Positions 7,202 to 27,769 of a stretch of DNA of 32,000 nucleotides are shown here, piece by piece. Source of the DNA: Trichodesmium erythraeum IMS101 (GTDB lineage Bacteria > Cyanobacteriota > Cyanobacteriia > Cyanobacteriales > Microcoleaceae). Positions within the stretch are counted from its first letter, which is position 1; every line of letters starts with the position of its first letter. The DNA lies in NCBI RefSeq assembly GCF_000014265.1, contig NC_008312.1, positions 330,001 through 362,000 on the forward strand, given 5' to 3'. The notes under the pieces were generated by a model. It was not told the origin of the DNA. It was given only the letters and a program-made list of their open reading frames with translations, and did not search any database. The translations under genes and the position numbers were made by a program.

Positions 7202-8224
7202 TTAAGCACCAATTTTAAATAAAGAACCCACAACTTGAGGAATATTTTCTAACTGCATTGCTGCCATTGCTGCTGTTGGTTCATAACCACAATGAACCAT
7301 ACAATCAGAACATTTAGGATTCCCACTTTTATAACCATAATTATTCCAATTAGTTTTCTCTATAAGTTCTTTAAAAGTAGCATAATACCCTTCATTCATT
7401 AAATAACAAGGTTTTTGCCAACCAAGCACACTATAGCTAGGACTACCCCAGGGAGTACAATCATAATCTTTTTCTCCCATCAAAAAGTCTAAAAATAGAG
7501 GATTATGGTTAAAATTCCAATTCTTTTTACCAGTTTTAAAAGGATTCAGAATTTCTTGAAATAACAATCGTGTTTGCTGTCGCTTCAGGAAATTATCCTG
7601 GTCTGGTGCCCACTCATAACTATAACCAGGAGAAATCATCATTCCATCAATATTTAAACTTTCTAAAAAATCAAAAAATTCCTGCATTTGTTTCGGGTCT
7701 GTTCCCTCAAATACAGTAGTATTAGTAGTAACTCGAAACCTTCTCGCTTTAGCAGCACGAATAGCTTCAACTGCTATTTGAAAAACCCCTTTTCTATCTA
7801 CACATTTATCGTGATTTGCCTGTAAACCATCAAGATGAACACTAAAAGTTAGATAAGGAGAAGGCTCAAATTTATCAAGATTCTTTTTGAGTAATAAACC
7901 ATTAGTACATAAATAAACAAATTTTTTCCGGTCAACTAACCCTTTGACAATTTCAGAAATTTGTGGATGTAATAAAGGCTCTCCTCCTGGAATAGAAACT
8001 ACAGGAGCACCACATTCTTCTACAGCAGTAAAACATTCTTGAGGTGTAAGATGTTGTTTTAATATTTCCTTGGGGTGCTGAATTTTGCCACAACCAGGGC
8101 AAGCTAAGTTACACCGAAACAAAGGTTCTAACATTAATACTAAAGGAAAATATTTGCGCCCTTTGAGTCGTTGAGTTAGAAGATATTTTCCGACTTCTAG
8201 AGCTTGTTGAAGTTGAATTGCCAT
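7202..8224 (-). CDS. hpnH: radical SAM protein, HpnH-like (adenosyl-hopene transferase, hopanoid side-chain biosynthesis)
   Basis: 340-aa ORF. It has the radical-SAM CxxxCxxC motif (CNLACPGCG), an N-terminal [20 protein letters not shown] and a C-terminal Cys cluster [11 protein letters not shown], all typical of HpnH. Confidence 0.75.
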
Positions 8225-8424: not shown

Positions 8425-9185
8425 AAAGTGTGGGAATGATCAGATGACTATTGTCCCTAAATACTTTCCATGATCATGGAATAGCATCTGTGTGGCCATC
8501 AGCAAACTATGGTATGAATTATTGTCCTGAATGGCTACAAACTTTCAATAATACTTTTGACACTCTATACTATCCCAGAAAAATTCCTAATGTAAGTAAT
8601 AGCTAAAAAAAAAGACATAAATTATAGAATTAAGTCTTTTTTTTGATCTCAAAACACTAGGGAATGGACAAAAATAGGACTTACCCAGGCAGATGAAATT
8701 CTACATCATTTGTATGGGTTAACGGAGTGCTCCGCAACATGAAAATTACTACTATATATGATTGGATAACTGCTCTATCAAACTGATACAAAGATTCACA
8801 TAACGTGATAATAGTTATGTTTACTTCCTGCTGACCCTGAGGCCTTAAGTTACTCAGCTACAGGGGTCGACGCTCAAGTTGAGGGCATTTCTCACCCTTT
8901 ATGCTTGGGTTTAATCTCGATCTATTGATAAGCTACATTCAGGGCCGTTATGAATTCTCAGCCTTAATGGCATATCTTCGACATGACTGCAGTTAGAGCA
9001 AGTTTTTTGATCACAGAAAGAATATATTAACTACGACAACTTACGGCACTATTGGCACTTGTACTCAAATTGTCTCCTGAATTGATAAAATCTTTGGTCT
9101 GCATCCACCTCTGTTGTTCCCTTCCGACTGAGGAGATGGGGCTGGGTTTTGGTTGGCTAAAATATTGCTGACATTCAAATATTCT
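8425..9185 (+). mobile_element. decayed IS-like element, copy 2 of 3 (same family as 1810-2690 and 21109-21455)
   Basis: It starts AAAAAGTGTGGGAATGATCAGATGACTATTGTCCC, encoding KCGNDQMTIVPKYFP* (compare KCGNDQMNIVPQPY in copy 1). By-eye homology runs through ACTACGACAACTTACGG / TGCATCCAC / AAAATATTGCTGACA near 9030-9185. There is no intact ORF. Confidence 0.4.
8605..8644. repeat. A9 / AGACATAA-N9-TTAAGTCT / T8 hairpin (bidirectional terminator-like); member of the AGACATAA hairpin family
   Basis: Read directly: AAAAAAAAAGACATAAATTATAGAATTAAGTCTTTTTTTT. The stem is 8 bp with one mismatch. Confidence 0.45.
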
Positions 9186-9350: not shown

Positions 9351-9380
9351 GAGACATAATTATGTCAGTTATGTCTTTTT
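9351..9380 (+). promoter_or_regulatory. GAGACATAA-N9-TTATGTCT hairpin plus T-run, about 100 nt upstream of the kinase gene
   Basis: The sequence is GAGACATAATTATGTCAGTTATGTCTTTTT, with an 8-bp perfect stem AGACATAA/TTATGTCT. It also contains the perfect palindrome GACATAATTATGTC. The same motif recurs beside both precursor genes. Confidence 0.4.
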
Positions 9381-9479: not shown

Positions 9480-10676
9480 ATGAAGTTTGTCTTAAACTCT
9501 CGAAATGTCTACGACTATTTAGTAGAAAATGGTTTATGTGATTCCCTACAGGAAGGGGAGCCATATCCTTCCCAGAACTCTCAGAGTAATGTTGAGCTAA
9601 TTAGTGCTAAGAATTTTAATTTATTGGTGACTTTGCCAGAGGGTCGAAAGCTTCTGGTTAAACAAGAACAATATAATTCTCAAGGAAAAACCCTTGGTGA
9701 GTTGTTTGGAGAATGGCGAATTCAAAAATTCTTACGGACATTTCCTGAACTTGACCATTGGCGTGTCTTTCTGCCAGAGTTGTTATTTCACGACCCTGAA
9801 AAGTCTATTGTGGTCTCTACTTACCTGGATAATTATCGAGATTTAAGTGATTTCTATTCTAAGGAAAATACTTTCCCTACAAAGGTTGCAGCTCAAATCG
9901 GTAATTTTTTGGGGACTGTTCACCGCGATACTTGGAATAGAGAAAATTATCGAGAGTTTTTTGCTAGTGAAGTTGTTAGTACTAAACCTGCAGTCTCCCC
10001 ACTTTTGGTGGATAGTCTCGAAAGGATAGGACCAGACATTTTTGGTATTGCTCCTGTAGATGGGTTGAGATTTTTTGCTCTTTATCAACGATATGACAGT
10101 TTGGGGAAAGCGATCGCTCAACTTCGCGAGACTTTATCTCCTACTTGTCTGACTCACAATGACCTGAAACTAAATAATATTCTCATGGCTCAAAATTGGG
10201 AAAATTCCGGTGAAAATATTGTGCGGTTAATTGATTGGGAAAGGTCTAGTTGGGGAGACCCTGCTTTTGATTTGGGAACGGCTATCAGCAGCTATCTGCA
10301 ACTTTGGTTGGGTAGTTTGGTTATTAGTAATTCTCTGAGTATAGAAGAATCTCTCAAATTTGCCACCACTCCCCTTGAATTACTTCAACCGTCTATTGCT
10401 GCTTTAGCTAAAGCTTATTTTGACACTTTCCCAGAAATTTTGGCATATCGTCCTGATTTTTTGAGACAAGTAGTACAGTTTGCAGGTTGGGGTTTGATGA
10501 CAGGAATTTTGTCAATGGTTCAATATCAAAAGACTTTTAATAATACGGGTATTGCGATGCTTCAGGTTGCCAAAGCATTATTATGTCGCCCTGACTCATC
10601 AATGTCTACAATTTTTGGTGTTGCTATTGAAGAAGTATTGAGGAGTCAGGAGCCAGGAGTCAGTAGAATGCATTAG
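9480..10676 (+). CDS. APH-fold phosphotransferase/kinase (candidate Ser/Thr-peptide kinase of a LxmK/TvaC-like dehydration pair)
   Basis: 398-aa ORF. It has the catalytic-loop motif HNDLKLNNIL (HxDxxxxN) and the metal-binding IDWERSSWGDPAFDLG, typical of the aminoglycoside/choline-kinase-like phosphotransferase fold. GAGAGG lies 9 nt upstream of the ATG. Confidence 0.75.
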   Translation: MKFVLNSRNVYDYLVENGLCDSLQEGEPYPSQNSQSNVELISAKNFNLLVTLPEGRKLLVKQEQYNSQGKTLGELFGEWRIQKFLRTFPELDHWRVFLPELLFHDPEKSIVVSTYLDNYRDLSDFYSKENTFPTKVAAQIGNFLGTVHRDTWNRENYREFFASEVVSTKPAVSPLLVDSLERIGPDIFGIAPVDGLRFFALYQRYDSLGKAIAQLRETLSPTCLTHNDLKLNNILMAQNWENSGENIVRLIDWERSSWGDPAFDLGTAISSYLQLWLGSLVISNSLSIEESLKFATTPLELLQPSIAALAKAYFDTFPEILAYRPDFLRQVVQFAGWGLMTGILSMVQYQKTFNNTGIAMLQVAKALLCRPDSSMSTIFGVAIEEVLRSQEPGVSRMH

Positions 10677-10838
10677 TACTACAACGCTTTTTAATGAACT
10701 ATTACAGGTAATATAGTGGTTGAGAATTGTCATAGGGAACGATAGTAAAGCTATCTCTGGGCAACTTTTCTTTTGCCACATTTAAGATTAAACAGTCCAC
10801 TACAATAATGCTTAAAAAATTTTACGAGGTTTAAAATT

Positions 10839-11948
10839 ATGCAATTACTTGAGTTTCCAAGTTATCACTTCCCTACTGGAGTAACTGGGCGATTAAAAGA
10901 AGTTTTATTAGACATTGTTGAGAGGGTAGAAATTTCCTCTGATTTTTCTATTCGTCATCCTGAGTATAAACCTTTAGATTTGCCTGCTGAGGTGGTTGCT
11001 CGTTTTCAGGCATTGCCAAAACAAATGCGGGATAAATATCTGAGTCTACAATTGCGTAGTTTTCTCTATGGTATCTATTATAATGGTTCGATGCAAACTT
11101 CCCTGGCATTGGATAGTGAGGAAAATAGTCGCCCATTAGATTTGGAGAATAATACTTTTCTTGGGGTAGAGATGGAGTTTTATATTCAGTTAGAAGAAAG
11201 TAATAGGGGAGAGGGGTATTTTGATTCTGGTTGGTCGGTGTTGAGGGAGGAAACTGATGGTGCTTTAGCTGTTACTAAGAATGGTTTGCGACTGCATATT
11301 GAACGAGAAAAGCATCTTCAAGAATCTCAGAAAGCTGCTGTTGTGGGGGATTCGGTAGCAATTCGGATGCCTAATAATTTGGTGCAAAATGGTTTCTATA
11401 TGGCGGTTGGTAATTTGGGTAGTCAGAGTCAGGTAGAGTCGGAAAGTCAATCTGGAGTGGTGCGAGTTTATTTTAACTTTACTTCTGAAGGTGCAGTAGT
11501 GGTCATGGGTAGTTTGACAGAGAAATTAAATGAGGTTGCTGTTCCTTTTAGTTTTAAAGTGTTGTATGCTCGTGATTATTATGATCGCTACGATGCTGGG
11601 GTACTCTATTTTGATAAGGATAATTATGAGTTGGTGAGGCAGGTTTTGTCGGATGTTTATGGGGAGAATAAATCTTATTTTAAATCAGAAATACCTTTAT
11701 TTACCATGGAGTTGGCACCGGGTTTGGGATTAGCTGAAGAGCCAGACAGGAAGTTTGCTAGTCAGGAAAGTTTTGGTATGAATAGGTGTCAGATGATAGC
11801 AAATGGATTATTGAAAGCTTGGGACCAGGGGGATAATTCGACTGAAGGAAGAATGAGGGCAATTTTGGAGCAATTTTCTTTATTGGGAATTGATTTGCAG
11901 CGTCCTTATTTGAATGCTAATTCTGAGGATGTTTATAGGGTGATATAG
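10839..11948 (+). CDS. HopA1-family-like protein (candidate phospho-Ser/Thr lyase partner of the kinase)
   Basis: 369-aa ORF directly downstream of the kinase on the same strand. Its size and sequence pattern (IRHPEYKPL, LRSFLYGIYYNG, LVQNGFYMA, GVLYFDK, GLGLAEEP..FGMNRC) match my recollection of cyanobacterial proteins annotated as the T3SS effector HopA1 family. This is not verifiable here. Confidence 0.5.
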   Translation: MQLLEFPSYHFPTGVTGRLKEVLLDIVERVEISSDFSIRHPEYKPLDLPAEVVARFQALPKQMRDKYLSLQLRSFLYGIYYNGSMQTSLALDSEENSRPLDLENNTFLGVEMEFYIQLEESNRGEGYFDSGWSVLREETDGALAVTKNGLRLHIEREKHLQESQKAAVVGDSVAIRMPNNLVQNGFYMAVGNLGSQSQVESESQSGVVRVYFNFTSEGAVVVMGSLTEKLNEVAVPFSFKVLYARDYYDRYDAGVLYFDKDNYELVRQVLSDVYGENKSYFKSEIPLFTMELAPGLGLAEEPDRKFASQESFGMNRCQMIANGLLKAWDQGDNSTEGRMRAILEQFSLLGIDLQRPYLNANSEDVYRVI

Positions 11949-11955
11949 TTTTTTT

Positions 11956-12347
11956 AGGTTGGGTTAAAGGACAGCGCCACCCAACAAGAACTCGTAAAGA
12001 TTAATTTTGAGATCAGGCTAATTATTTGTATGTGTTGGGCTTTGTTCCTCAACCCAACCTACACTATTTTCAATAATTTTTCAGTGGAACTGGGTTGGGT
12101 TAAGGGATAGGAAGTGAACAAAAGGTGGTATTTGTGAAGGTAGCGATCGCCTAAATTAACATGATTAATAGAACCGATGTTTATTAAAGAATAGTCTGGT
12201 GTAGGTGGGGTTAAGGGACAGCGAACCCAACAAAAAGCCTAACTAATGAAAATGGCGATCGCTAGGATCAGACAAAGATACTAAATGGTTCTACATTTTC
12301 TTCTAGTCTGGTGTAGGTTGGCTTAAGCGATCGCGCACACAACAACC
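11956..12347. repeat. cluster of 5 imperfect hairpin repeats (GGTTGGGTTAAGGGACAGCG.ACCCAACA type), one of them inverted
   Basis: Copies were read near 11957, 12041 (inverted), 12092, 12199 and 12311, at roughly 100-nt spacing. Each is internally self-complementary (GTTGGGT...ACCCAAC). This is a common Nostocales intergenic repeat class. Confidence 0.7.
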
Positions 12348-12412
12348 TATATCTGTGGTGTTTGGTTCTGGTGAGCAAACCCACGCCCCAGTTCAATAAT
12401 AATTTTTCAGTT

Positions 12413-12446
12413 CAGCTCCAGCTCAATTATGGGGCTGTTTTTTTTT
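12413..12446 (+). terminator. rho-independent terminator (likely ends the kinase/HopA1 transcript)
   Basis: CAGCTCCA-GCTCAATTA-TGGGGCTG forms an 8-bp stem with one G-U pair, followed by T9. Confidence 0.7.
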
Positions 12447-12486
12447 GACTTTTATTGTGGTTCGATACCATCAGAAAATAAAAAAA

Positions 12487-12511
12487 AGACATAATTGTGT
12501 GAGTTATGTCT
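12487..12511 (-). repeat. AGACATAA-N9-TTATGTCT hairpin, inverted relative to the 9351 copy (T-run on the minus strand)
   Basis: The reverse complement GAGACATAACTCACACAATTATGTCTTTTTTT aligns with 9351-9380. Both stem arms and the T-run are identical; only the loop differs. Confidence 0.45.
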
Positions 12512-12592
12512 CCAATAATTATCTTTTTTGATTTAATTAACTAGCTTTTAGCTAATTTTGAGTTAAAATGGATGATTATTAGTCGTTATTTC

Positions 12593-12620
12593 GAGACATA
12601 ATTGTGTCAATTAGATACAC
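12593..12620 (+). promoter_or_regulatory. half-decayed copy of the GAGACATAATT(A/G)TGTCA motif, about 47 nt upstream of a -35-like TTGCAT (12640-12645)
   Basis: GAGACATAATTGTGTCAATTAGATACAC shares its first 21 nt, apart from 2 mismatches, with 9351-9371. At 9351 the motif lies 46 nt upstream of a -35-like TTGTCA (9397-9402). Confidence 0.3.
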
Positions 12621-12750
12621 TTTGATTTTGTTCAACCCCTTGCATTTATAAGAAAGTTAGGTAATAATATAAGTGGAAAGAGACAAAACCAAGTCTGATT
12701 CCAAATCAACAAAGTTTATCTACTAATTTTACTTAAGGAGTAACTTAAAA

Positions 12751-12924
12751 ATGGCTAACATTAACATCTCTGATTTAAGTCCTGCTGGTGCGGACTTGTT
12801 CTTAGATTCTGAAAGCTACCTCAATGATTTGACTGAGGGAGAAATGACGAATACATTGGGTGGTAAAGGTAGCTTCACCTTTTGTGGTAAACGGATCTCA
12901 TGGAGTATCTGCTGGGGGTACTGA
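12751..12924 (+). CDS. double-glycine-leader peptide precursor A (57 aa; core KGSFTFCGKRISWSICWGY)
   Basis: Hand translation gives MANINISDLSPAGADLFLDSESYLNDLTEGEMTNTLGG|KGSFTFCGKRISWSICWGY*. AAGGAG lies 10 nt upstream. The leader fits the C39 consensus L(-12)xxxE(-8)M(-7)xxTxGG. The leader is conserved with only synonymous changes in the paralog at 13694. The ORF is below the track's size cutoff. Confidence 0.85.
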   Translation: MANINISDLSPAGADLFLDSESYLNDLTEGEMTNTLGGKGSFTFCGKRISWSICWGY

Positions 12925-13356
12925 TCATAAAATTAAGTAAAAAAAAAAGAAGAGAGTGATTTGGTGATTATTCCATCTTAGTATAAGTGAGAACTATGTC
13001 AACAATTCTTTCCTACCTTTTCTGACAGTTGATTTACTGTGACTAATTGACTAACTAATCTTGCTAGTTCCTCACTTTTGGTTACCTGGCACCATAGGCA
13101 CAGCTAAAAAACTGACCATCACTAATAAAAGGAAAATACCTCTTAAAAGTTTGCTACTTTAGTAATACTTTCTTGAGGTATTTTCTGTGCCTTATGTTGA
13201 CGACAAGACAAAAAAGCTGGAGGATTAGAATTTGTAGGTTGCAGGTTATCATTGTAGAGGTGTAGGTTAGGCGATCGCGCACACAACAACCTATATCTGT
13301 GGTGTTTGGTTCTGGTGAGCAAACCCACGCCCCAGTTCAATAATAATTTTTCAGTT

Positions 13357-13390
13357 CAGCTCCAGCTCAATTATGGGGCTGTTTTTTTTT
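13357..13390 (+). terminator. rho-independent terminator (duplicate of 12413-12446)
   Basis: The identical CAGCTCCA-GCTCAATTA-TGGGGCTG stem-loop is followed by T9. Confidence 0.7.
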
Positions 13391-13693
13391 GACTTTTATT
13401 GTGGTTCGATACCATCAGAAAATCAAAAAAGACATAATTGTGTGAGTTATGTCTCCAATAATTATCTTTTTTGATTTAATTAACTAGCTTTTAGCTAATT
13501 TCGAGTTAAAATGGATGATTATCAGTCGTTATTTTGAGACATAATTGTGTCAATTAGATACACTTTGATTTTGTTCAACCCCTTGCATTTATAAGAAAGT
13601 TAGGCAATAATATAAGTGGAAAGAGACAAAACCAAGTCTGATTCCAAATCAACAAAGTTTATCTACTAATTTTACTTAAGGAGTAACTTAAAA

Positions 13694-13852
13694 ATGGCTA
13701 ACATTAACATCTCTGATTTAAGTCCTGCTGGTGCTGACTTGTTCTTAGATTCTGAAAGCTATCTCAACGATTTGACTGAGGGAGAAATGACGAATACATT
13801 AGGAGGATCGAGGTGGTGGAACAGATTAAAAGATTGGTTTCGTACACGTTAA
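13694..13852 (+). CDS. double-glycine-leader peptide precursor B (52 aa; core SRWWNRLKDWFRTR)
   Basis: Hand translation gives MANINISDLSPAGADLFLDSESYLNDLTEGEMTNTLGG|SRWWNRLKDWFRTR*. It has the same AAGGAG SD as gene A. Six nucleotide differences from the gene A leader were counted, all synonymous third-position changes. Confidence 0.85.
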   Translation: MANINISDLSPAGADLFLDSESYLNDLTEGEMTNTLGGSRWWNRLKDWFRTR

Positions 13853-14300: not shown

Positions 14301-15062
14301 CTATGCAGCAATAAGTTTACTATTTAAATCTAAATCAATTAAAACTTCAACCGACTCAACTTGCTTCTTAAGCCACTCATCAAACAACTCCGCAAAAATC
14401 TGAGAGCGCAACTTATTATCTAACTCTGCTGAAATAATTTCCTCCACAAAAATCAAATGTACCCCCTTAGAAGTCACAATAGGTTTAATCATCTGGGGAG
14501 GTTTAGCCGCAAAAACAGCCGCAGAAATCTCTGGTTTCAAATCCTTACGATACAACACCCCTCGATATCCCCCCTGACGACGTAACTCTATATCTTCAAT
14601 GTATTCATGAGCCACATCATAGAAACTTGTTTCCCCTTCCTGAATAGCATAGAATAATTCCATCCCTAAATCTTGATCATCCAAAACCACCTCATACATC
14701 ACCACACCAGCATAATTCAATTGATTTTCATAAAAATATGGCTCAACTTTATCTGCAAACAGATGAGCCACCAATTTTTGAGCAACAACACTTATATAGA
14801 CAACTTCCTCAAAATCATCAATAGATAGACAAAACTTTTCTAACCAAGCAAAAGTGTCTTGGGCGCTATGAAGTTTATTTACAAACCTCATAGTATCTGC
14901 CGCTTTCTGCAGTTCTTCAGTCTCCACTTTTATACCCGCTTCCTTCGCTGCATTCAGAATAATCTCGCGAGTAATAATCTCTTCTTTCAGCTCAGAAGTT
15001 TTTAAAGATAACTTAATGTGCTTCAAAATATCTTCAGCAGTAATAATAATAGATTGTAACAT
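14301..15062 (-). CDS. parvulin/PpiC-type peptidyl-prolyl isomerase-like protein with no signal peptide
   Basis: 253-aa ORF. The C-terminal part (GGYRGVLYRKDLKPEISAAVFAAKPPQMIKPIVTSKGVHLIFVEE) resembles the PpiC rotamase core (GG.LG.f.rg.m.p.f..a.f....G....pv.t..G.H.i.v). The N-terminal part is helical and SurA-N-like. It is the last gene of the exporter operon. Confidence 0.65.
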   Translation of the reverse strand: MLQSIIITAEDILKHIKLSLKTSELKEEIITREIILNAAKEAGIKVETEELQKAADTMRFVNKLHSAQDTFAWLEKFCLSIDDFEEVVYISVVAQKLVAHLFADKVEPYFYENQLNYAGVVMYEVVLDDQDLGMELFYAIQEGETSFYDVAHEYIEDIELRRQGGYRGVLYRKDLKPEISAAVFAAKPPQMIKPIVTSKGVHLIFVEEIISAELDNKLRSQIFAELFDEWLKKQVESVEVLIDLDLNSKLIAA

Positions 15063-17560: not shown

Positions 17561-20287
17561 CTACCCAACATCTAACTGTTGACGATTCAAATAATAATAA
17601 TGTCCCCGTTTCGCCATCAACTCTTCATGATTTCCCTGCTCAATTAATACCCCCCGATCCAACACTAAAATTAGATCAGCATTTCTCACAGTAGATAAAC
17701 GGTGAGCAATAATTAACGAAGTGCGACCCTGGAGAATAGTATTCAAATTCCTCTGAATAATTCGCTCCGACTCAACATCCAGATGAGAAGTAGCCTCATC
17801 AAAAACCAAAAAACAGGGTTTTCCTAACAAAGCACGAGCGATCGCTAATCTTTGCCGTTGACCACCAGACAACAAACCCCCACCTTCCCCTATCTGAGTT
17901 TCATAACCCATCGGCAACCGTTGAATAAACTCATCAGCACCAGCTAACCTAGCAGCATCCACAATATCTTCAAGAGTTGCAGAAGGACAAGCCATAGTCA
18001 AATTTTCCCGAATAGTGCCACCAAATAAAAAAGTATCCTGATCAACCACACCCACTTTATTCCGCAGGGATGGCAACGAAATCGCCGTGATATCGTAACC
18101 ATCAATCAAAATTTTCCCATCAGTAGGCGGATACAACCCCAAAACCAACTTAGAAATTGTTGTCTTCCCAGACCCAGAGCGCCCCACCAAAGCCACAGTT
18201 TGTCCAGCTTTCACCTCAAAACTCAGATTTTCCAAAACATTAATATCGCTTTCTGGGTGGTAACGGAAAGTCACATTATCAAAAATAATATTACCCCGTA
18301 GCTCCGTCAAATACTGACGTGCCTGAGATTGTAAATCTTCCTCAGGCTCAGTATCAATCACATCATTAATACGCTCCATGGCAATAACCACCTCCTGTAA
18401 CTGATTCCACAAAACCGTCAGTCGCTGAAAAGGGCTAATCACATTACCTATCAACATATTAAAAGCCACCAACTGCCCAATAGTTAACTCTCCCTGAATA
18501 ACCAACCAAGCTCCAAACCATAGTAACCCCGTCGTTACTAAAGATTCAATAGTTAAGCTAAACATTTGCAGTCGGTTACCCATCACCTGTCCAGAAAAGT
18601 TTTTTCTGATTGACTTATTCAGAAGTTCCTCCCACCGCCAGCGTACTGTTTGCTCAACTGCCAGAGATTTCACAGTATTTACACCAGTCAAAGATTGAAT
18701 CAGATAACTACTTTCTTCAGCTAGAGCGGCAAATATTTCTCTAGAGATTTTTTGGAGAAAGGGTGTAGCAATAAGTGCTAATAAAAAAAACGGTGGCACA
18801 ATAACCAATGCTAGCAAAGCCATCTTCCAGCTATACCAGAACATTAGCCCTACATAAACAAATACCGTCAGCAAATCTAAGACAATAGAAAGAGCTTCTC
18901 CAGTTAAGAAATTCTCAATTTTCCGGTTTTCTTGAACCCGAGCAATAATATCCCCCACATAACGAGACTCAAAAAAACTCATGGGTAGTCGGAATGTGTG
19001 GCGAATAAACCCAACGATCATGGCTATATGTACTCTATTAGCCGTGTGATCAAGGAGATATTGTCGCAAACCCGTCATAGCCACCTGAAATAAGCCAAAG
19101 AGCACTAAACCTAATCCCACTGCTGTTAGAGTTAGAGTGCTACCTTGAACAACTACCCGGTCTAGTAGTAGTTGGGTAAATAGAGGGGTAATAAGTCCAA
19201 ATATTTGAATTACTAGAGAAGTGATAAATACTTCCAATAGAACTTGTCCATGAGGACTGACCAACTCAAAAAATTGCCAGAAAGGAGTAGTGGTATCTTT
19301 AAGTTTTTTGATTAATGCAGTAGGTTGTAGGAGTAAAGTATAGCCAGTCCAACCAGCTTTAAATTCTGGATAAGTAAGATGGCGTTGACCAATAGCGGGG
19401 TCAGCGATGATCACCTGTTTATGGGTGACCTCATAGACTACCACATAATGTTTACCTTCCCAGTGAGCGATCGCTGGTAATTTTTGTTTAGCTAATTGAT
19501 CAAGACTTGCCTTAACTGGTCTGGTAGAATATCCAATGCTTTCTGCAGCAGCAGATAATCCTCGAAGTGAAGCACCGTTACGGTCTACATTAGCAATATC
19601 GCGCACCCTATTCACGCTGAAATTTTTGCCCCAGTAACGAGCAACCATGACTAAACAAGCCGCACCACAGTCAGAACCGCTTTGTTGGGCAAAGAATGGA
19701 TAGCGTCTGGTAATACGCTGCCAGAGATGACCTACTCTTTGGGTGGGACTAGGGAAATAGGCTTTGTTAATAGCTTTTTGTCCTATAACCTCTGGTTGCT
19801 CATATTCAGTCCTGTTAAATTCTGGCAGATTTTTACCCAAAGAATTGGGAATTTCTGGCTCCGCTTTTTTCTGTAGAGCATTAAGTTTGAGAGCAACTTG
19901 GTAAAGATGTTCTCGAATTTGAGGATGTTTTTTAATTAGTGGGAGTAGAGCTTCTCGAGAGAGATAGGAAAGTTTGAGATTTACTGATGCTCTAGCAGAG
20001 TAGGATAAAAAAGAGTTATCTGGAAATAGGGTAGATTCCCCAAATGAAGCTCCAGCAACAAGGGTAGTCATTAATTCACCCTCAGTATCTAAGAGTCTAA
20101 CTTTGCCTTTGGTGATTATATATATGCCGGTTTGAGCATCTGCTGTTTGCCAAAATTGACCGACTTTGGGCGTTAAATTTTCCATATTTTTCAAGCAACT
20201 TTCTATTTCCTGCTGTGAAAGTTGATATCCTAAGACATCACTAAGCTGCTCTTGAGTTAAACTTGGAGTGGATGCAGTTTTAACCAT
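17561..20287 (-). CDS. cyclic-nucleotide-binding domain / C39 peptidase / ABC transporter (bacteriocin-type, HetC-like exporter)
   Basis: 908-aa ORF.
- cNMP-binding signatures: FGESTLF and SARASV.
- C39 catalytic Cys context QQSGSDCGAACLVMV, and His in AIAHWEGKHYVVVYEV.
- TMD.
- Walker A GRSGSGKTT, signature LSGGQRQRLAIARAL, Walker B LVFDEATSHLD. Confidence 0.92.
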   Translation of the reverse strand: MVKTASTPSLTQEQLSDVLGYQLSQQEIESCLKNMENLTPKVGQFWQTADAQTGIYIITKGKVRLLDTEGELMTTLVAGASFGESTLFPDNSFLSYSARASVNLKLSYLSREALLPLIKKHPQIREHLYQVALKLNALQKKAEPEIPNSLGKNLPEFNRTEYEQPEVIGQKAINKAYFPSPTQRVGHLWQRITRRYPFFAQQSGSDCGAACLVMVARYWGKNFSVNRVRDIANVDRNGASLRGLSAAAESIGYSTRPVKASLDQLAKQKLPAIAHWEGKHYVVVYEVTHKQVIIADPAIGQRHLTYPEFKAGWTGYTLLLQPTALIKKLKDTTTPFWQFFELVSPHGQVLLEVFITSLVIQIFGLITPLFTQLLLDRVVVQGSTLTLTAVGLGLVLFGLFQVAMTGLRQYLLDHTANRVHIAMIVGFIRHTFRLPMSFFESRYVGDIIARVQENRKIENFLTGEALSIVLDLLTVFVYVGLMFWYSWKMALLALVIVPPFFLLALIATPFLQKISREIFAALAEESSYLIQSLTGVNTVKSLAVEQTVRWRWEELLNKSIRKNFSGQVMGNRLQMFSLTIESLVTTGLLWFGAWLVIQGELTIGQLVAFNMLIGNVISPFQRLTVLWNQLQEVVIAMERINDVIDTEPEEDLQSQARQYLTELRGNIIFDNVTFRYHPESDINVLENLSFEVKAGQTVALVGRSGSGKTTISKLVLGLYPPTDGKILIDGYDITAISLPSLRNKVGVVDQDTFLFGGTIRENLTMACPSATLEDIVDAARLAGADEFIQRLPMGYETQIGEGGGLLSGGQRQRLAIARALLGKPCFLVFDEATSHLDVESERIIQRNLNTILQGRTSLIIAHRLSTVRNADLILVLDRGVLIEQGNHEELMAKRGHYYYLNRQQLDVG

Positions 20288-20400: not shown

Positions 20401-21063
20401 TTAAATAACTAAAGTGTTGAAAGTTAACGTTTCCAAATCAGAGTTAACATTTTGCTCTGAGGTCAGGTCGCGAATTGCAATGTTTTTTCTCTTGGCATTT
20501 TGACTAATAGTTTCATCAGTTTGAGCTGATAATGTTTTAGTAGATAATCCCATCTTTTTGATTAAACGGTTAATATGGCGATCGCTAAATTCTACCCCAA
20601 ATTCTTTAGCTAAATGTTTCCCTAAGCAATTAGCAGTCCACCGCTCAAATGCATAACCACATTTCTTAGGACTATTAGTTAATAACTCTTTCAACCGCTC
20701 TAAATATTGTTCATTAACTTCTTGAGGACGACCTATAGGGTGATTCTTCCATTGTTGAGCTTGACCAGACTGAGCAATAAATATCCAGTATCTAGCTGTA
20801 GCTAGAGAACAACCTATAGCCTCACGGATCTGGGTCTGGGTTTTGCCTTCATCTGCTAGAAGCATGATTTCTATTCTCTGGCGATATTGCCTGGTCAACT
20901 TCTTATCTAGACTTTTTTCTAACAATTTACGCTGAAAAGACGTCAAGCAGCTGCCGTGTAAACTTGACTCATTCATTGTGATTTTGGATTTTGAGTGATT
21001 GTATAACATAGGTTTATAATTATTTTTTGACACTCCAGTTTTTCTCACAGAGATATTTCTCAA
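20401..21063 (-). CDS. stand-alone HTH protein resembling the N-terminal DNA-binding half of IS630-type transposases (possible locus regulator); start codon uncertain
   Basis: 220-aa ORF. It reads LLADEGKTQTQIREAIGCSLATARYWI ... GRPQEVNEQYLERLKELL ... YAFERWTANCLGKHLAKEFGVEFSDRHINRLIKKMGLS, a homeodomain-like plus winged-helix pattern. No DDE half follows; the ABC gene starts 113 nt downstream. An alternative start MNESS lies at about 20976. Confidence 0.6.
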   Translation of the reverse strand: MRNISVRKTGVSKNNYKPMLYNHSKSKITMNESSLHGSCLTSFQRKLLEKSLDKKLTRQYRQRIEIMLLADEGKTQTQIREAIGCSLATARYWIFIAQSGQAQQWKNHPIGRPQEVNEQYLERLKELLTNSPKKCGYAFERWTANCLGKHLAKEFGVEFSDRHINRLIKKMGLSTKTLSAQTDETISQNAKRKNIAIRDLTSEQNVNSDLETLTFNTLVI

Positions 21064-22377: not shown

Positions 22378-23694
22378 ATGAATAAAGAAATATTTGAATA
22401 TATTTATTCCTCTCAATTAACAAAGAATGACGAAAAAACACTAAAGTTATTATTTGCTAATAAGCAACGTAAAGAAATTGCTAAAGCCCTCAAGTGTGTA
22501 GAGACAAATGTTAGTCACAAATTCAAAGCGATCGCTAAAAAATTCAACTATTTAGAATCTAATCAGAATTGTAAAGCAACAGAATACTTAGTTAAGATAT
22601 TTAGCCAATATAAACCTGATATGGTTGATCAACAACTAATTAAATCTTATGCTTCTTATCCAATTTTAATGCCAGATAAACCTGAAGAACCAGACTCCCC
22701 TTTTTATATAGAACGTCATCAGATTCCACGTCGTTCTGTTGAATCTCAATGCTACGAGACTATAGAAAGACCAGGTTCTTTAATCAGAATAAAAGCACCC
22801 AAAAAAATGGGTAAAACTTCTCTGATCAATCAGATACAAGCCAAAGCAAATGACAATAATTATATTTCTCAGTATCTGAGATTCGATCTTTTGATTGAGC
22901 CCCCAAATATCAGTAGTGTTAATAATTTTATTAAAGCATTTAATAAAATCATCAAAAGTCGGTTCCCAGATGTTTCAAAAGGCTCTAATTGGGATAATAA
23001 TAATGCTAAAATTTCTTGTACTAAAGATTTAAAATCACTATTGCTGAATTTACAGAAAAACTTAGTTTTAATATTAGATGAAGTGGATGAAATTTTCCAA
23101 TATCCAGAAATAACTAAAGATTTTTGTGGGATGTTAAGACATTGGTATGAAGAAAGTAATAATGTCAAAATTTGGAAAAATTTACGAATAGTAATTGCTT
23201 ATTCTACAGAATATCATGGCAAATTAGATATTTATCAATCTCCTTTTAATGTAGGCAGCTCAATAGAATTAAAGGAGTTTACAAAAGAAGAAGTAACTCG
23301 ATTAATATTCTTATACCAACTTGACCCCAAAATAGTGACTGATTTAATGTCTATGGTAGGAGGGCATCCTTATTTAATTAGGTTAGCTTTATATAGAATG
23401 TCTCAGGAAGAATTGACAATTGAAAAATTCTTAAAAGAAGCCCCCACTGATAGTGGAATTTATCGAGACCATTTCAGCAGACATTTAGAAACTATAGACA
23501 AAAGGTCAAAAATTAAAACAGTTTTTCAAGAAATATTAAAAGCTAATGAACCAGTCAGTTTTTCTGATAAAAATAGAGAGGTACGTCAGCTAGAAGCTAT
23601 GGGATTAATTAAAATTGAAGGTAATAAGGCTAAAACTGGTTGTCAGTTATATCAAAAATATTTTGGAGAGTTTTTATTAGGCATTAGGTTTTAG
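22378..23694 (+). CDS. LuxR/sigma70-region-4-like HTH fused to an AAA-like (AAA_35-type) NTPase domain
   Basis: 438-aa ORF.
- N-terminal LTKNDEKTLKLLFANKQRKEIAKALKCVETNVSHKFKAIAKKF resembles a LuxR-type HTH.
- Walker A APKKMGKTS and Walker B LVLILDEVDE.
- SPFNVGSSIELKEFTKEEV and GGHPYLIRLAL are typical of cyanobacterial AAA-like domain proteins. Confidence 0.65.
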   Translation: MNKEIFEYIYSSQLTKNDEKTLKLLFANKQRKEIAKALKCVETNVSHKFKAIAKKFNYLESNQNCKATEYLVKIFSQYKPDMVDQQLIKSYASYPILMPDKPEEPDSPFYIERHQIPRRSVESQCYETIERPGSLIRIKAPKKMGKTSLINQIQAKANDNNYISQYLRFDLLIEPPNISSVNNFIKAFNKIIKSRFPDVSKGSNWDNNNAKISCTKDLKSLLLNLQKNLVLILDEVDEIFQYPEITKDFCGMLRHWYEESNNVKIWKNLRIVIAYSTEYHGKLDIYQSPFNVGSSIELKEFTKEEVTRLIFLYQLDPKIVTDLMSMVGGHPYLIRLALYRMSQEELTIEKFLKEAPTDSGIYRDHFSRHLETIDKRSKIKTVFQEILKANEPVSFSDKNREVRQLEAMGLIKIEGNKAKTGCQLYQKYFGEFLLGIRF

Positions 23695-23935
23695 GTTTTA
23701 GGTATTAAGCGTTAGATTTAAAAATTAACAAACTTTACTCTTTTTTATTTTGACTGAATTTGTTCCATTAAACCATGTAGAATAATGCAAATTTATTGAC
23801 ATTTATTTAATAGGTTTTAGGTATTATTTATTAGGCGTTATATTTAAAAATCAACAAACGTAACTATTTTTTATTTTGACTGATTTGTTCCATTTAACGA
23901 TGTAGAATTATGCCAAATTATTCAAAGTTTTTTTA
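23693..23935. repeat. two units of about 120 bp in tandem, plus a partial third (about 23940-23985), in the intergenic region
   Basis: Both units start TAGGTTTTAGGTATTA and share ..TATTTAAAAATCAACAAAC..TTTTTTATTTTGACTGA.TTTGTTCCATT.AAC.ATGTAGAAT.ATGC. Read by eye. Confidence 0.75.
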
Positions 23936-24085
23936 AGACGACTTTGATTTAAGGTATCAGATTTAAAGTTAACAAATTGATAATGTATTCTTACTACCAA
24001 AATCATCATTTTGGTCTGTCGTTTTAATAATTCTTGAATTCCATAAGACCCCGTCCTTAAGAAGGGAGCTAAAATTATTTCTGTT

Positions 24086-24117
24086 AACCTGAAACCTGAA
24101 ACCTGAAACCTGAAACC
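24086..24117. repeat. heptanucleotide tandem repeat (AACCTGA)x4.5, STRR-like
   Basis: AACCTGAAACCTGAAACCTGAAACCTGAAACC lies about 130 nt upstream of the ATG at 24244. A related inverted heptamer, AGGTTTTAGGTTTTAGGTATT, sits at 23686-23706 over the stop of the upstream gene. Confidence 0.85.
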
Positions 24118-24243
24118 AACTAAAACTTAACATCTGAATTAGTGCTAATGGTTAGATATTAACCCTTCAACTCCCAAGGAACTTCAGATCAGTAAAACCT
24201 TGCTGGGAGGCGAGGACATCAAATATTTATTAATGAAATTATT

Positions 24244-26607: not shown

Positions 26608-26893
26608 GGAGAAAGAAAAGAGTATAATAACTAAGTTCAAATACTTTAAGTCTTCAAAAAAATGTATTTAGAGAATACATTTTTTCTCCCACAAAAGCCT
26701 ATTAAATACTTATACATAATATGCTTATTTTGTCAAGCTTTATTTTCATAAAAAATATTTGTAAAGCATAGCTTGGAAAGAGGGAAGTTAGATGAAGACA
26801 TTTTATTTATCCAGGCCATTTTGGTAAATTAAATTCTTCCATCTATTGAACAAATTGGTATTACAAAAAGTTTTTTTTGAGGGATAAAATTCT

Positions 26894-27769
26894 ATGAAAT
26901 ATAAACAAGTTATTATTTGTGCTTTGGGATTATTGGTAGGAATGACTCAACTAGTTTGGGGGGAATTTCAAAACCCACAAACAAGTAGACCAGGGAACAA
27001 ACGAGATCGGGGGAATCACATGACAGAAAGTAGACCAGAGCAGAGGAAAAAGAAGCCACCAGTTAATATGCCAATAAAGCATAAACCGTTTGAAAGCCCA
27101 CCAATAAGTAGACCAGGGAACAGAGGAGATGCGGGGCATCAGGCGATAGAACCTCATGGAGATGGACGGACTAGAGGTCCTAATAATCCTGCTGAATTAT
27201 GTCTTCAAATGGAAAAGCCTCTTTTGGCTCTCATTCCTCAAAGCAACTTCGGATACACTTTAGCAAGTCATCCGACTTTTTGGTTATATCTTCCTGGCTA
27301 TAACAACTCTATTAATTTCACTTTGAAGGATGAAGATACTGGAAAGGAAATTTATCAAACTAAGTTTAATGTTGAATCTGAACGGGGAATTATTAGTTTG
27401 AAGTTACCTTCTGCTGCACCGCGTTTACAGGTAGGAAAAGAATATCGTTGGCAATTTGTTTTTAACTGTAGAAATGAGTCCAAGAATTTATCTGTTGAAG
27501 CAGTGGTTGCGCGGAAGGCAACTACCGAGAGTTTGACTAGTCAGTTGAGCTCGGCTACAACTGTGATGGAAATGATAGATATTTATGGGAAAAATGGTTT
27601 GTGGCATGAGACTATTACGACATTAGGAAACTTGCGCCGGAGTTATCCTAATAATGTAGCGATCGCCACTAGATGGAATAGTTTATTGGAGCAAGATGGT
27701 ATCCGTTTTCCAGACTATGATTTGACTAAGACCGAGATTCAAAATTGTTGTAATGTTTCCGATCAGTAG
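26894..27769 (+). CDS. secreted DUF928-family protein
   Basis: 291-aa ORF with a signal-peptide-like N-terminus (VIICALGLLVGMTQLVWG). A basic Gly/Pro/Arg-rich segment ends in GDGRTRG. PLLALIPQSNFGYTLASHPTFWLYLPG and YRWQFVFNC resemble the DUF928 core as I recall it. GAGGGA SD upstream. Confidence 0.6.
   Translation: MKYKQVIICALGLLVGMTQLVWGEFQNPQTSRPGNKRDRGNHMTESRPEQRKKKPPVNMPIKHKPFESPPISRPGNRGDAGHQAIEPHGDGRTRGPNNPAELCLQMEKPLLALIPQSNFGYTLASHPTFWLYLPGYNNSINFTLKDEDTGKEIYQTKFNVESERGIISLKLPSAAPRLQVGKEYRWQFVFNCRNESKNLSVEAVVARKATTESLTSQLSSATTVMEMIDIYGKNGLWHETITTLGNLRRSYPNNVAIATRWNSLLEQDGIRFPDYDLTKTEIQNCCNVSDQ

What the first reader, a model, noticed from the sequence alone, without database searches (positions are those of the whole stretch)
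9480..11948. Kinase/HopA1-like dehydration pair without any recognisable cyclase
Seen: the two ORFs are adjacent and co-oriented, with a 162-nt gap, and end at a strong terminator (12413-12446) just before the precursor cassettes. Established: in class V lanthipeptide clusters a third protein (LxmX-type) directs cyclisation. Here no further unassigned ORF exists between 9480 and 21063. Either the pair acts alone, the cyclase is encoded elsewhere, or this widespread cyanobacterial gene pair has a function unrelated to the neighbouring peptides. The HopA1 assignment rests on my recollection of family sequences and needs confirmation.
Basis: partly seen in the sequence, partly recalled or inferred. 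Interest (0 to 1): 0.7.

Follow-up and report, generated by a model that had tools for sequence, protein, structure and literature searches.

The report
Cyanobacterial split peptide dehydratase, no cyclase
The two genes are a real kinase plus phospho-lyase pair of the kind that dehydrates serine and threonine in ribosomal peptides, and they sit in a very common, already catalogued cyanobacterial peptide cluster whose product nobody has yet determined.

Summary
ORF1 (9480-10676) is an APH-fold kinase whose best curated match is the class V lanthipeptide kinase LxmK. ORF2 (10839-11948) is a strong HopA1-family protein (Pfam E 7.8e-61). Its predicted fold best matches LxmY, the lyase of the solved LxmK/LxmY dehydratase. 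The kinase and lyase catalytic residues are invariant across 80 cyanobacterial homologues.

The pair is not free-standing. In 80 species genomes it heads a fixed cluster: kinase, lyase, 1-6 double-glycine-leader precursors, a PPIase-like protein, HlyD, a cNMP-C39-ABC exporter and an HTH protein. A conserved palindrome lies upstream of both the pair and each precursor.

No LanC, LanX or LanD occurs in the window. Only 2 of 65 complete clusters carry a LanM. Only 43% of 148 cores contain Cys. Where Cys is present, Ser/Thr lie at ring-forming distance on its N-terminal side more often than chance.

Best reading: a LanK/LanY-type dehydratase acts on the adjacent peptides, and any thioether rings form without a dedicated cyclase.

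This family is already catalogued: Eyles 2021 'Family 1A', Wang 2011 SurA-containing group I/II type, and antiSMASH class V. It is a new member of a known but uncharacterised kind.

The parts
9353..9375 (.). Palindromic candidate operator GACATAA-N9-TTATGTC, 127 nt upstream of the kinase ATG
   Evidence: The window holds 4 matches against 0.26 expected by chance. The same motif lies 101-132 nt upstream of the kinase start in Okeania, Arthrospira, Microcystis, Dapis and Paraprochloron loci.
9480..10676 (+). LanK-like Ser/Thr kinase (APH fold), predicted to be catalytically active
   Evidence: Pfam APH E 1.6e-11 and NCBIfam LxmK E 1.4e-28 (below cutoff). phmmer hit to LxmK chain 9dk1_A, E 8e-6. 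K61, E78, H226, D228, N233 and D252 are conserved in 75-76 of 76 orthologues.
10839..11948 (+). LanY-like phospho-Ser/Thr lyase (HopA1 family)
   Evidence: PF17914 E 7.8e-61. Sequence hit to LxmY 9dk1_B, E 1.9e-7 for the single sequence and 8.8e-9 for the profile. Foldseek top hits are LxmY (E 1e-12), then P. syringae HopA1, then class III/IV lyase domains and SpvC/OspF. H40, R209, K240, R250 and Y257 are invariant in 80/80 homologues.
12419..12446 (+). Intrinsic terminator ending the kinase-lyase transcript; first element of the repeated precursor cassette
   Evidence: Stem of 6 pairs (4 G-C) followed by a T9 run. It lies within direct repeat D3, 12323-12486 / 13267-13430.
12488..12510 (.). 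Candidate operator, 263 nt upstream of precursor 1
   Evidence: Exact match to the palindrome. The motif lies roughly 195-320 nt upstream of precursor genes in Okeania, Nostoc, Microcystis and Nodularia (130 nt in Arthrospira).
12751..12924 (+). Precursor 1: 38-aa double-glycine leader plus core KGSFTFCGKRISWSICWGY
   Evidence: jackhmmer leader family hit, E 1e-20. A strong AAGGAG ribosome-binding site precedes the gene. The core has two SxxxC units (S3-C7 and S12-C16) and belongs to a subfamily with a C-terminal (S/T)x1-3C-aromatic motif seen in 8 taxa.
13363..13390 (+). Second copy of the terminator, between the two precursor genes
13431..13453 (.). Candidate operator, 263 nt upstream of precursor 2
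13694..13852 (+). Precursor 2: identical leader plus Cys-free cationic core SRWWNRLKDWFRTR
   Evidence: Net charge +4; Ser1 and Thr13 are the only hydroxyl residues.
14301..15062 (-). Cytoplasmic PPIase-like (parvulin/SurA-type) protein; candidate partner or chaperone
   Evidence: Pfam Rotamase E 2e-8; NCBIfam TIGR04500 'peptide maturation system protein' E 3e-20 (below cutoff, matching the C-terminal two thirds of the profile). Present in 71/80 loci. The TIGR04500 protein MirC is required for a graspetide synthetase to work (PMC13097080).
15347..17230 (-). HlyD-type periplasmic adaptor
   Evidence: Present in 65/80 loci.
17561..20287 (-). cNMP-binding / C39 peptidase / ABC exporter, which cleaves after Gly-Gly and exports the peptide
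   Evidence: Peptidase_C39 E 1.5e-40, ABC_membrane, ABC_tran and cNMP_binding. Present in 64/80 loci.
20401..21063 (-). HTH protein resembling the N-terminal part of an IS630 transposase; conserved cluster member and candidate regulator
   Evidence: HTH_33/HTH_32 hits; IS630 model positions 1-120 of 299 only. An orthologue sits at the same end of the cluster in 56-57/80 loci.

Best explanation
ORF1 and ORF2 form a split Ser/Thr dehydratase of the LanK/LanY (class V lanthipeptide) type.

Proposed pathway:
1. The kinase binds the conserved N-terminal half of the double-glycine leader and uses ATP to phosphorylate Ser/Thr in the hypervariable core.
2. The HopA1-fold lyase removes the phosphate by beta-elimination, giving dehydroalanine or dehydrobutyrine.
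3. In cores that contain Cys, such as precursor 1 (S3...C7 and S12/S14...C16), thioether rings form without a dedicated cyclase. They form either spontaneously under substrate control or on the K-Y complex. The conserved PPIase-like protein may act as a chaperone.
4. Cys-free cores, such as precursor 2, stay linear and dehydrated.
5. The cNMP-C39-ABC exporter, with HlyD, cuts after Gly-Gly and secretes the peptide.
6. The HTH protein probably controls the pair and each precursor through the shared palindrome.

Shown here: the family assignments, the intact catalytic residues, the synteny, the shared motif, the absence of a cyclase and the Ser/Thr-Cys geometry.
Inferred: the enzyme activity, the substrate identity, the mode of ring formation, and the roles of the PPIase-like and HTH proteins.
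For: - Family assignment: HopA1 domain E 7.8e-61 and LxmK-like kinase E 1.4e-28.
- Both proteins match the two chains of the solved LxmK/LxmY dehydratase 9dk1. Foldseek ranks LxmY first at E 1e-12.
- The residues corresponding by alignment and spacing to CaoY R187, K219, R229 and Y236 are R209, K240, R250 and Y257. They are invariant in 80/80 homologues. The kinase HxDxxxxN motif and the D252 motif are intact (PMC9486802).
- The kinase-lyase order is found in 80/80 loci. A precursor with this leader lies within about 6 kb downstream in 72/75 loci.
- The palindrome GACATAA-N9-TTATGTC lies upstream of the pair and of each precursor, and this placement holds across genera.
- Cores are enriched in Thr (11.3% against 5.4%) and Cys (2.5% against 0.9%).
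- In 45 non-redundant Cys-containing cores, 56/73 Cys have Ser/Thr at i-2 to i-5, against 37.6 +/- 4.0 in shuffles (0/3000 reach it). The mirror-image control shows no enrichment.
- No cyclase domain occurs in the window. LanM is present in only 2/65 complete clusters.
- Precedent: the Lan ring of rosin is substrate-controlled and helped by RosK-RosY (PMC12291118).
Against: - No biochemical data exist for any member of this cyanobacterial family in the literature searched.
- The kinase scores far below the LxmK equivalog cutoff (100 against 315 bits). A profile of the cyanobacterial kinases did not recover LxmK from the PDB at E <= 0.001.
- The structure model is of low confidence (pLDDT 58.6, TM about 0.45).
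- 57% of cores have no Cys, and two have no Ser/Thr, so lanthionine cannot be the family-wide product.
- Two clusters carry a LanM next to the pair. This could mean the pair alone does not make rings.
- A cyclase elsewhere in the genome cannot be excluded from a 32-kb window.
- The Ser/Thr-Cys statistic uses related sequences, so it is not a true probability.
Confidence: 0.65

Rival explanations
1. The pair dehydrates the peptides, but ring closure is done by a LanC or LanM encoded elsewhere in the genome. This would resemble ProcM, which serves distant prochlorosin genes.
For: A LanM (DUF4135 + LANC_like) sits directly after the lyase gene in 2 of 65 complete clusters, Moorena producens 3L and Aulosira. 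Many cyanobacterial lanM genes are unlinked to their substrates (PMC3140520).
Against: 63/65 clusters lack any such gene. LanM is itself a dehydratase, which would make the pair redundant. 57% of cores lack Cys. The rest of the genome cannot be checked from this window.
Confidence: 0.15
2. The family-wide product is a linear dehydrated (or only phosphorylated) peptide. Thioethers are incidental, and the dehydro residues serve stability, membrane activity or later chemistry.
For: Only 64/148 cores contain Cys. Many cores are hydrophobic, GxxxG-rich and resemble unmodified two-peptide bacteriocins. Ser/Thr occupies core position 2 in 43% of cores and x-[S/T]-P starts 43/148 cores. An aldo-keto-reductase-like gene follows the lyase gene in 15-16 loci and could reduce dehydro residues.
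Against: Where Cys occurs, its Ser/Thr partners are placed directionally as in lanthipeptides. Precursor 1 has two SxxxC units.
Confidence: 0.15
3. The pair has a function unrelated to the neighbouring peptides. For example, it could be a regulatory protein kinase/phospho-lyase acting on cellular proteins, like the HopA1/OspF-type effectors.
For: HopA1 was first described as a plant-pathogen effector. Cores have no universally conserved Ser/Thr/Cys (PMC8153245). In Microcystis and Raphidiopsis the pair is not adjacent to the exporter genes.
Against: Those same loci still keep the precursors right after the lyase gene. 72/75 loci have this arrangement. The pair and the precursors share an operator. 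All characterised bacterial kinase/HopA1 pairs act on RiPP precursors (PMC9486802, PMC8153245, PMC12291118).
Confidence: 0.05

Closest known systems
LxmK/LxmY, CaoK/CaoY and RosK/RosY: the split dehydratase of class V lanthipeptides (also TvaC/TvaD and TsaC/TsaD of thioamitides)
   Same: An adjacent APH-fold kinase and a HopA1-fold lyase. Both proteins hit the two chains of PDB 9dk1. The lyase residues (Arg, Lys, Arg, Tyr) and the kinase motifs are conserved. The expected chemistry is ATP-dependent phosphorylation followed by beta-elimination.
   Different: Sequence identity is only about 18-21% for the lyase, and the kinase falls below the LxmK equivalog cutoff. There is no LanD, LanX, methyltransferase or reductase. 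The leader is a double-glycine type cut by a C39-ABC exporter. The cores are hypervariable, mostly hydrophobic, and more than half lack Cys. The host is a cyanobacterium rather than an actinomycete.
Cyanobacterial 'Family 1A' HopA1-associated clusters (Eyles et al. 2021, PMC8153245); 'type-B LanA' (Liang et al. 2022, PMC9486802); the SurA-containing group I/II bacteriocin clusters of Wang et al. 2011 (PMC3140520)
   Same: The same gene pair, the same conserved double-glycine leader with variable cores, several non-identical precursors, and the long-type C39-ABC exporter, HlyD and SurA-like genes. This window is a member.
   Different: None in kind. This is a compact version with two precursors. 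It lacks the upstream radical-SAM/Nif11/Cys-rich-protein extension seen in many Nostocales loci.
Prochlorosin/ProcM system (class II)
   Same: A cyanobacterial system in which one enzyme set faces many hypervariable cores behind a conserved leader, with double-glycine export.
   Different: ProcM is a single LanM with its own zinc-dependent cyclase domain, and its leader is Nif11-type. Here the dehydratase is split and no cyclase domain exists.
MirC-type (TIGR04500) PPIase-like partner protein of graspetide synthetase (PMC13097080)
   Same: The window's PPIase-like protein matches the C-terminal SurA-like part of TIGR04500. It also sits in a RiPP cluster with a peptidase-containing ABC exporter.
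   Different: It lacks the N-terminal RRE-like domain of MirC and scores below the family cutoff. Its partner enzyme would be a kinase/lyase, not an ATP-grasp ligase. No functional data exist.

Membership tests
LanY (HopA1-fold phospho-Ser/Thr lyase of class V lanthipeptide or thioamitide pathways) | HopA1 domain (PF17914) covering the C-terminal catalytic region | tested here: met
   E 7.8e-61, profile positions 1-170 of 170. Foldseek top hit is LxmY, E 1e-12.
LanY (HopA1-fold phospho-Ser/Thr lyase of class V lanthipeptide or thioamitide pathways) | Catalytic Arg, Lys, Arg and Tyr (CaoY R187, K219, R229, Y236) plus an auxiliary His | tested here: met
   K240, R250 and Y257 align with the Lys/Arg/Tyr of LxmY, with the same +10 and +17 spacing as in CaoY. 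R209 lies 31 residues before the Lys. All are invariant in 80/80 homologues (PMC9486802). The equivalence of H40 to CaoY H57 is inferred from invariance only.
LanK (class V lanthipeptide kinase, NCBIfam NF038156 LxmK) | Score above the curated equivalog cutoff | tested here: not met
   100 bits against a cutoff of 315, although the match spans residues 36-378 and is the best family hit. The protein is LxmK-like but not an LxmK equivalog.
LanK (class V lanthipeptide kinase, NCBIfam NF038156 LxmK) | Intact kinase catalytic residues (beta3 Lys, alphaC Glu, HxDxxxxN, metal-binding Asp) | tested here: met
   K61, E78, H226/D228/N233 and D252 are conserved in 75-76 of 76 orthologues.
LanK/LanY dehydratase complex | Heterodimer formation and leader-dependent dehydration of a precursor | not testable with these tools
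   Requires co-purification and mass spectrometry. No multimer prediction tool was available.
Class Va lanthipeptide (lanthidin) cluster | LanD flavoprotein decarboxylase, LanX kinase-fold cyclase, and a C-terminal Cys for AviMeCys | tested here: not met
   The window has no flavoprotein and no second kinase. The cores end in ...CWGY and ...FRTR. The second kinase copies in 8 other loci always come as catalytically dead kinase/HopA1 pairs.
Class Vb lanthipeptide cluster | Stand-alone or fused LanC cyclase next to the kinase/HopA1 pair | tested here: not met
   The window has no LANC_like domain. Among related clusters it appears only as a LanM, in 2/65.
Cyanobacterial Family 1A HopA1-associated RiPP cluster (Eyles 2021) | Kinase/HopA1 pair next to several peptides with a conserved double-glycine leader and variable cores; restricted to cyanobacteria | tested here: met
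   Two precursors share an identical 38-aa leader and have unrelated cores. The leader family was recovered in 72/75 loci. All 80 best genome hits are cyanobacteria.

The most novel reading that the evidence does not exclude
These very common cyanobacterial clusters may make a distinct, still undescribed RiPP type. In this reading a LanK/LanY dehydratase processes hypervariable, mostly hydrophobic bacteriocin-like cores. Thioether rings form without any cyclase domain when Cys is present. A PPIase-like partner, rather than a cyclase, assists maturation. The [S/T]-Pro motif at core positions 2-3 could be a phospho-Ser/Thr-Pro site of the kind parvulins recognise.
Probability: 0.25. Interest if true: 0.65.

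Novelty: new member of a known kind. Interest (0 to 1): 0.38.

Why it matters
antiSMASH-type surveys call this cluster type 'lanthipeptide class V'. It is reported as the most frequent predicted RiPP class in cyanobacteria, at 28.6% of RiPP clusters (preprint 10.64898/2026.09.06.749771). No product from it was found described in the literature searched.

This window offers a minimal test case. It has one active kinase/lyase pair, one Cys-containing precursor and one Cys-free precursor, both with the same leader, and no cyclase. Expressing it would directly test three things:
- whether split dehydratases can yield lanthionines without a cyclase;
- what the Cys-free products are;
- whether the PPIase-like protein is needed.

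The finding as written is not new to specialists.

Tried and rejected
1. A profile of 14 cyanobacterial kinases against PDB sequences lost the LxmK hit. The single sequence had found it at E 8e-6. The kinase-LxmK link therefore rests on the NCBIfam model and the single-sequence hit.

2. The AlphaFold2 model of ORF2 from 24 close homologues was poor (pLDDT 58.6). The Foldseek ranking is informative, but the TM-scores (0.42-0.49) are weak. I did not model the kinase.

3. I looked for a lone LanX-like second kinase. Second copies exist in 8 loci, but always as a kinase plus HopA1 pair with dead active sites. None is in the window.

4. I searched the window for the accessory genes seen upstream in Nostocales: the 146-aa Cys-rich protein, a second GG-peptide type, Nif11 peptides, a radical SAM/SPASM enzyme and an AKR-like gene. 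None is present.

5. I considered the 20401-21063 ORF a decayed IS630 transposase. I rejected this because an orthologue occupies the same position in 56-57 of 80 loci.

6. Literature searches for an experimentally characterised cyanobacterial member found none.

7. The exact protein is on record only in metagenome assemblies. The source genome could therefore not be searched for a distant cyclase.
Full report
**Observation.**
Both are on the + strand and lie 162 nt apart.
- A hairpin at 12419-12437 followed by nine T residues is a credible intrinsic terminator.
- The terminator is not simply the end of the pair. It is the first element of a roughly 943-nt unit that is duplicated (12323-13265 and 13267 to about 14200, 93-99% identical). 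Each unit carries a terminator, a palindrome, a promoter region and one precursor gene.
- The pair and each precursor are therefore separate transcription units.

**Identity of the pair.**
- ORF2 matches Pfam HopA1 (PF17914) over the whole profile at E 7.8e-61.
- ORF1 matches APH (E 1.6e-11). Among NCBI's curated families its best match is the class V lanthipeptide kinase LxmK (E 1.4e-28, residues 36-378). At 100 bits it is far below the equivalog cutoff of 315.
- Against solved structures, ORF1 hits chain A and ORF2 hits chain B of one entry, 9dk1. That entry is the LxmK/LxmY lexapeptide dehydratase heterodimer (PMC12141560).
- An AlphaFold2 model of ORF2 was of low confidence (pLDDT 58.6). 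Foldseek still ranked the hits in a meaningful order:
  - the three LxmY chains first (E about 1e-12, 310-364 aligned columns);
  - then the two P. syringae HopA1 structures;
  - then the lyase domains of class III/IV lanthipeptide synthetases;
  - then the SpvC/OspF phosphothreonine lyases.
- This order is the relationship proposed for LanY proteins by Liang et al. (PMC9486802).

**Catalytic residues.**
- Liang et al. showed that CaoY needs R187 and K219, with R229, Y236 and H57 contributing.
- In the alignment to LxmY, the Lys, the Arg ten residues later and the Tyr seventeen residues later are conserved as K240, R250 and Y257. An Arg (R209) lies 31 residues before the Lys.
- These four residues and H40 are invariant in all 80 cyanobacterial orthologues examined.
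- The kinase keeps the beta3 Lys (K61), the alphaC Glu (E78), the HxDxxxxN motif (H226, D228, N233) and the metal-binding Asp (D252). These are present in 75-76 of 76 orthologues.
- The window therefore encodes an apparently active kinase and an apparently active lyase.

**Context across genomes.**
- A scan of one genome per GTDB species found at least 516 loci encoding a relative. The best 80 are all cyanobacteria: Okeania, Arthrospira, Nostoc, Microcystis, Moorena, Coleofasciculus, Crocosphaera, Calothrix and others.
- The gene order is strikingly fixed:
  - on the + strand: kinase, lyase, then one to six precursor genes;
  - then, converging on the - strand: a PPIase-like gene, HlyD, a cNMP-C39-ABC exporter and a small HTH protein.
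- Counts over the 80 loci are kinase 80, precursors 72, PPIase-like 71, HlyD 65, ABC 64 and HTH 56-57. Many of the gaps coincide with contig ends.
- Among the 75 loci with at least 3 kb downstream of the lyase gene, 72 have a precursor of this leader family within about 6 kb.
- Microcystis and Raphidiopsis loci keep the kinase, lyase and precursors but lack adjacent exporter genes. The tightest linkage is therefore between the pair and the peptides.

**A shared regulatory motif.**
- The palindrome GACATAA-N9-TTATGTC occurs four times in the window, against 0.26 expected by chance:
  - at 9353, 127 nt before the kinase ATG;
  - at 12488 and at 13431, each 263 nt before a precursor ATG;
  - at 8614 with one mismatch, inside what looks like an A-run/T-run hairpin.
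- The motif recurs 101-132 nt upstream of the kinase gene in Okeania, Arthrospira, Microcystis, Dapis and Paraprochloron.
- It recurs about 195-320 nt upstream of precursor genes in Okeania, Nostoc, Microcystis and Nodularia (130 nt in Arthrospira).
- In total there are 67 matches in 37 loci, in 1.5 Mb of sequence.
- This is independent evidence that the pair and the peptides are co-regulated. The cluster's HTH protein is the obvious candidate binder, but that is an inference.

**The peptides.**
- Both window precursors share an identical 38-residue leader, MANINISDLSPAGADLFLDSESYLNDLTEGEMTNTLGG.
- The C-terminal half of the family consensus is the canonical double-glycine export signal: L-12, E-8, L-7, G-2, G-1.
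- The N-terminal half, I-x-I-x-(D/N)-L-x-P-x-G-x-x-L-F-x-D-S-E-S-(F/Y), is specific to this family. It is the likely recognition element for the kinase, by analogy with CaoA and LxmA binding to the kinase C-lobe (PMC9486802, PMC12141560).
- I collected 148 distinct cores from the 80 loci. They have these properties:
  - They are hypervariable, with a median length of 26 residues.
  - They are often hydrophobic, with GxxxG-like stretches.
  - 146 of the 148 contain Ser or Thr.
  - Thr is twofold enriched (11.3% against 5.4% in long ORFs of the same loci) and Cys nearly threefold (2.5% against 0.9%).
  - Only 64 (43%) contain Cys.
  - Core position 2 is Ser/Thr in 43% and position 3 is Pro in 32%. 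The motif x-[S/T]-P opens 43 cores.
- In 45 non-redundant Cys-containing cores, 56 of 73 Cys have a Ser/Thr two to five residues upstream. Within-core shuffles give 37.6 +/- 4.0, and 0 of 3000 shuffles reach 56. The mirror test, Ser/Thr downstream of Cys, shows no enrichment (39 against 37.6).
- This directional bias is what lanthionine-forming cores show. The sequences are related, so the count is indicative rather than a probability.
- Window precursor 1 (KGSFTFCGKRISWSICWGY) has two SxxxC units. It belongs to a small subfamily with a C-terminal (S/T)x1-3C-aromatic motif, found in Okeania, Nostoc, Tolypothrix, Coleofasciculus and Crocosphaera.
- Precursor 2 (SRWWNRLKDWFRTR) has no Cys.

**The missing cyclase.**
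- No LanC-like, LanM, flavoprotein or second kinase gene occurs anywhere in the 32-kb window.
- Inside the 65 related clusters with both boundaries present, only 19 extra ORF families of at least 120 aa occur. I scanned 17 of them with Pfam; the two left unscanned are singleton ORFs of 127 and 138 aa that look spurious.
  - A LanM sits directly after the lyase gene in two clusters.
  - An aldo-keto-reductase-like gene occurs in 15-16.
  - An NHL-repeat protein occurs in 8-10.
  - The remainder are toxin-antitoxin modules, transposases and similar.
- Eight loci carry a second kinase/HopA1 pair, 35-43% identical to the first. Both active sites are lost in these copies: kinase D228 becomes N, G or K and D252 often becomes N; lyase R209 becomes F, Y, S or L, Y257 becomes Q or R, and K240 is often lost. 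These dead pairs recall the kinase-fold cyclase LanX, but none is present here.
- The premise that an LxmX-type protein 'directs cyclisation' needs updating. Xie et al. showed that LanX catalyses AviMeCys ring closure together with LanD. They also showed that the lanthionine ring of rosin forms under substrate control, helped by the RosK-RosY complex (PMC12291118).
- Absence of LanX and LanD here predicts no AviCys ring. This fits cores that do not end in Cys. It does not argue against thioethers.

**The PPIase-like protein.**
It is cytoplasmic by sequence, with no hydrophobic N-terminus.
- It is present in 71 of 80 loci. It matches the C-terminal two thirds of NCBIfam TIGR04500, 'putative peptide maturation system protein' (E 3e-20, below cutoff).
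- A TIGR04500 protein, MirC, was recently shown to be indispensable for a graspetide synthetase and to co-purify with it (PMC13097080).
- Wang et al. noted SurA-like genes in cyanobacterial bacteriocin clusters of groups I, II and VI, including clusters without modification enzymes (PMC3140520). The protein may therefore belong to the export module rather than to the dehydratase.
- Its role is open. It is the most plausible third maturation component.

**What is already known.**
- Wang et al. (2011) described cyanobacterial bacteriocin clusters with the long-type C39-ABC exporter, HlyD, SurA and additional modification genes.
- Eyles et al. (2021) searched for HopA1 proteins and defined 'Family 1A': 570 double-glycine-leader peptides in 183 clusters. 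The family is exclusive to cyanobacteria, and its variable cores lack conserved Ser, Thr or Cys.
- Liang et al. (2022) called the cyanobacterial peptides 'type-B' putative class V precursors.
- A 2026 preprint reports lanthipeptide-class-v as the most frequent predicted RiPP type in cyanobacteria, at 28.6%.
- I found no paper reporting a product or an enzyme assay for this family.

**Verdict.**
- The window holds a compact, apparently intact member of a well-catalogued but biochemically uncharacterised family.
- The best-supported mechanism is leader-guided phosphorylation and elimination on the adjacent peptides. Thioether formation, where Cys is present, would occur without a dedicated cyclase, followed by Gly-Gly cleavage and export.
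- My confidence is about 0.65 that the pair dehydrates these peptides, and about 0.4 that rings then form without any cyclase.
- It does not meet the definitions of class Va (no LanD or LanX) or class Vb (no LanC). The kinase is LxmK-like rather than an LxmK equivalog.
- As a finding it is of moderate interest. It is not new to the field, but it is a convenient test system for an open question.

Noticed in passing
window 20401-21063 (-): This ORF looks like the N-terminal HTH part of an IS630 transposase (profile positions 1-120 of 299). It is in fact a conserved last gene of the cluster in 56-57 of 80 cyanobacterial loci, so it is probably a domesticated regulator.
   Followed up: partly
window 8614-8636, 9353-9375, 12488-12510, 13431-13453: The palindrome GACATAA-N9-TTATGTC occurs upstream of the kinase gene and of each precursor gene (4 matches against 0.26 expected). 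It is conserved at similar distances across several cyanobacterial orders. The 8614 copy sits between an A-run and a T-run and may instead be a bidirectional terminator.
   Followed up: partly
L005, L006, L008, L014, L047, L048, L051, L064 (e.g. L014 12904-15179): These loci carry a second kinase/HopA1 pair, 35-43% identical to the first, with catalytic residues lost in both proteins. It is a catalytically dead paralogous pair of unknown role, possibly a scaffold or a LanX-like helper.
   Followed up: partly
L060 12863-16129 (Moorena producens 3L) and L076 11123-14422 (Aulosira): A full-length LanM (DUF4135 + LanC-like) is inserted directly after the lyase gene. These are hybrid clusters with Cys-rich cores.
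   Followed up: no
e.g. L073 11104-12129, L039 11107-12123: An aldo-keto-reductase-like gene (338 aa) lies immediately downstream of the lyase gene in 15-16 loci. It could be a new type of dehydro-residue reductase.
   Followed up: no
Upstream of the kinase gene in many Nostocales loci (e.g. L070 5697-6194, L013 7314-8618, L026 4150-4449): Many Nostocales loci have a co-oriented upstream extension: a 146-aa Cys-rich protein with no Pfam hit (43 loci), a second double-glycine peptide type (39 loci), Nif11-leader peptides (26 loci) and a radical SAM/SPASM enzyme (26 loci). All are absent from this window.
   Followed up: partly
Cores of the precursor family (148 sequences from L001-L080): Core position 2 is Ser/Thr in 43% and position 3 is Pro in 32%, and x-[S/T]-P opens 43 cores. 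Given the cluster's kinase and parvulin-like protein, this resembles a phospho-Ser/Thr-Pro site. The two window cores do not carry this motif.
   Followed up: partly
window 11945-12345: Three copies of a roughly 42-nt repeat with GCGATCGC (HIP1-like) sites fill the spacer between the lyase stop codon and the terminator. Similar short repeats recur inside the duplicated cassette.
   Followed up: no
window 22378-27769 (+): Just beyond the cluster lie two AAA_35 ATPase genes, one fused to a CHASE2 sensor domain, followed by a DUF928 gene. This looks like an unrelated signalling or defence-like module.
   Followed up: no
window 7202-8224 (-): The upstream neighbour is a bona fide adenosyl-hopene transferase HpnH (TIGR03470, 545 bits). 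It is not a peptide-modifying radical SAM enzyme. The same synteny is seen in Dapis (L080).
   Followed up: yes
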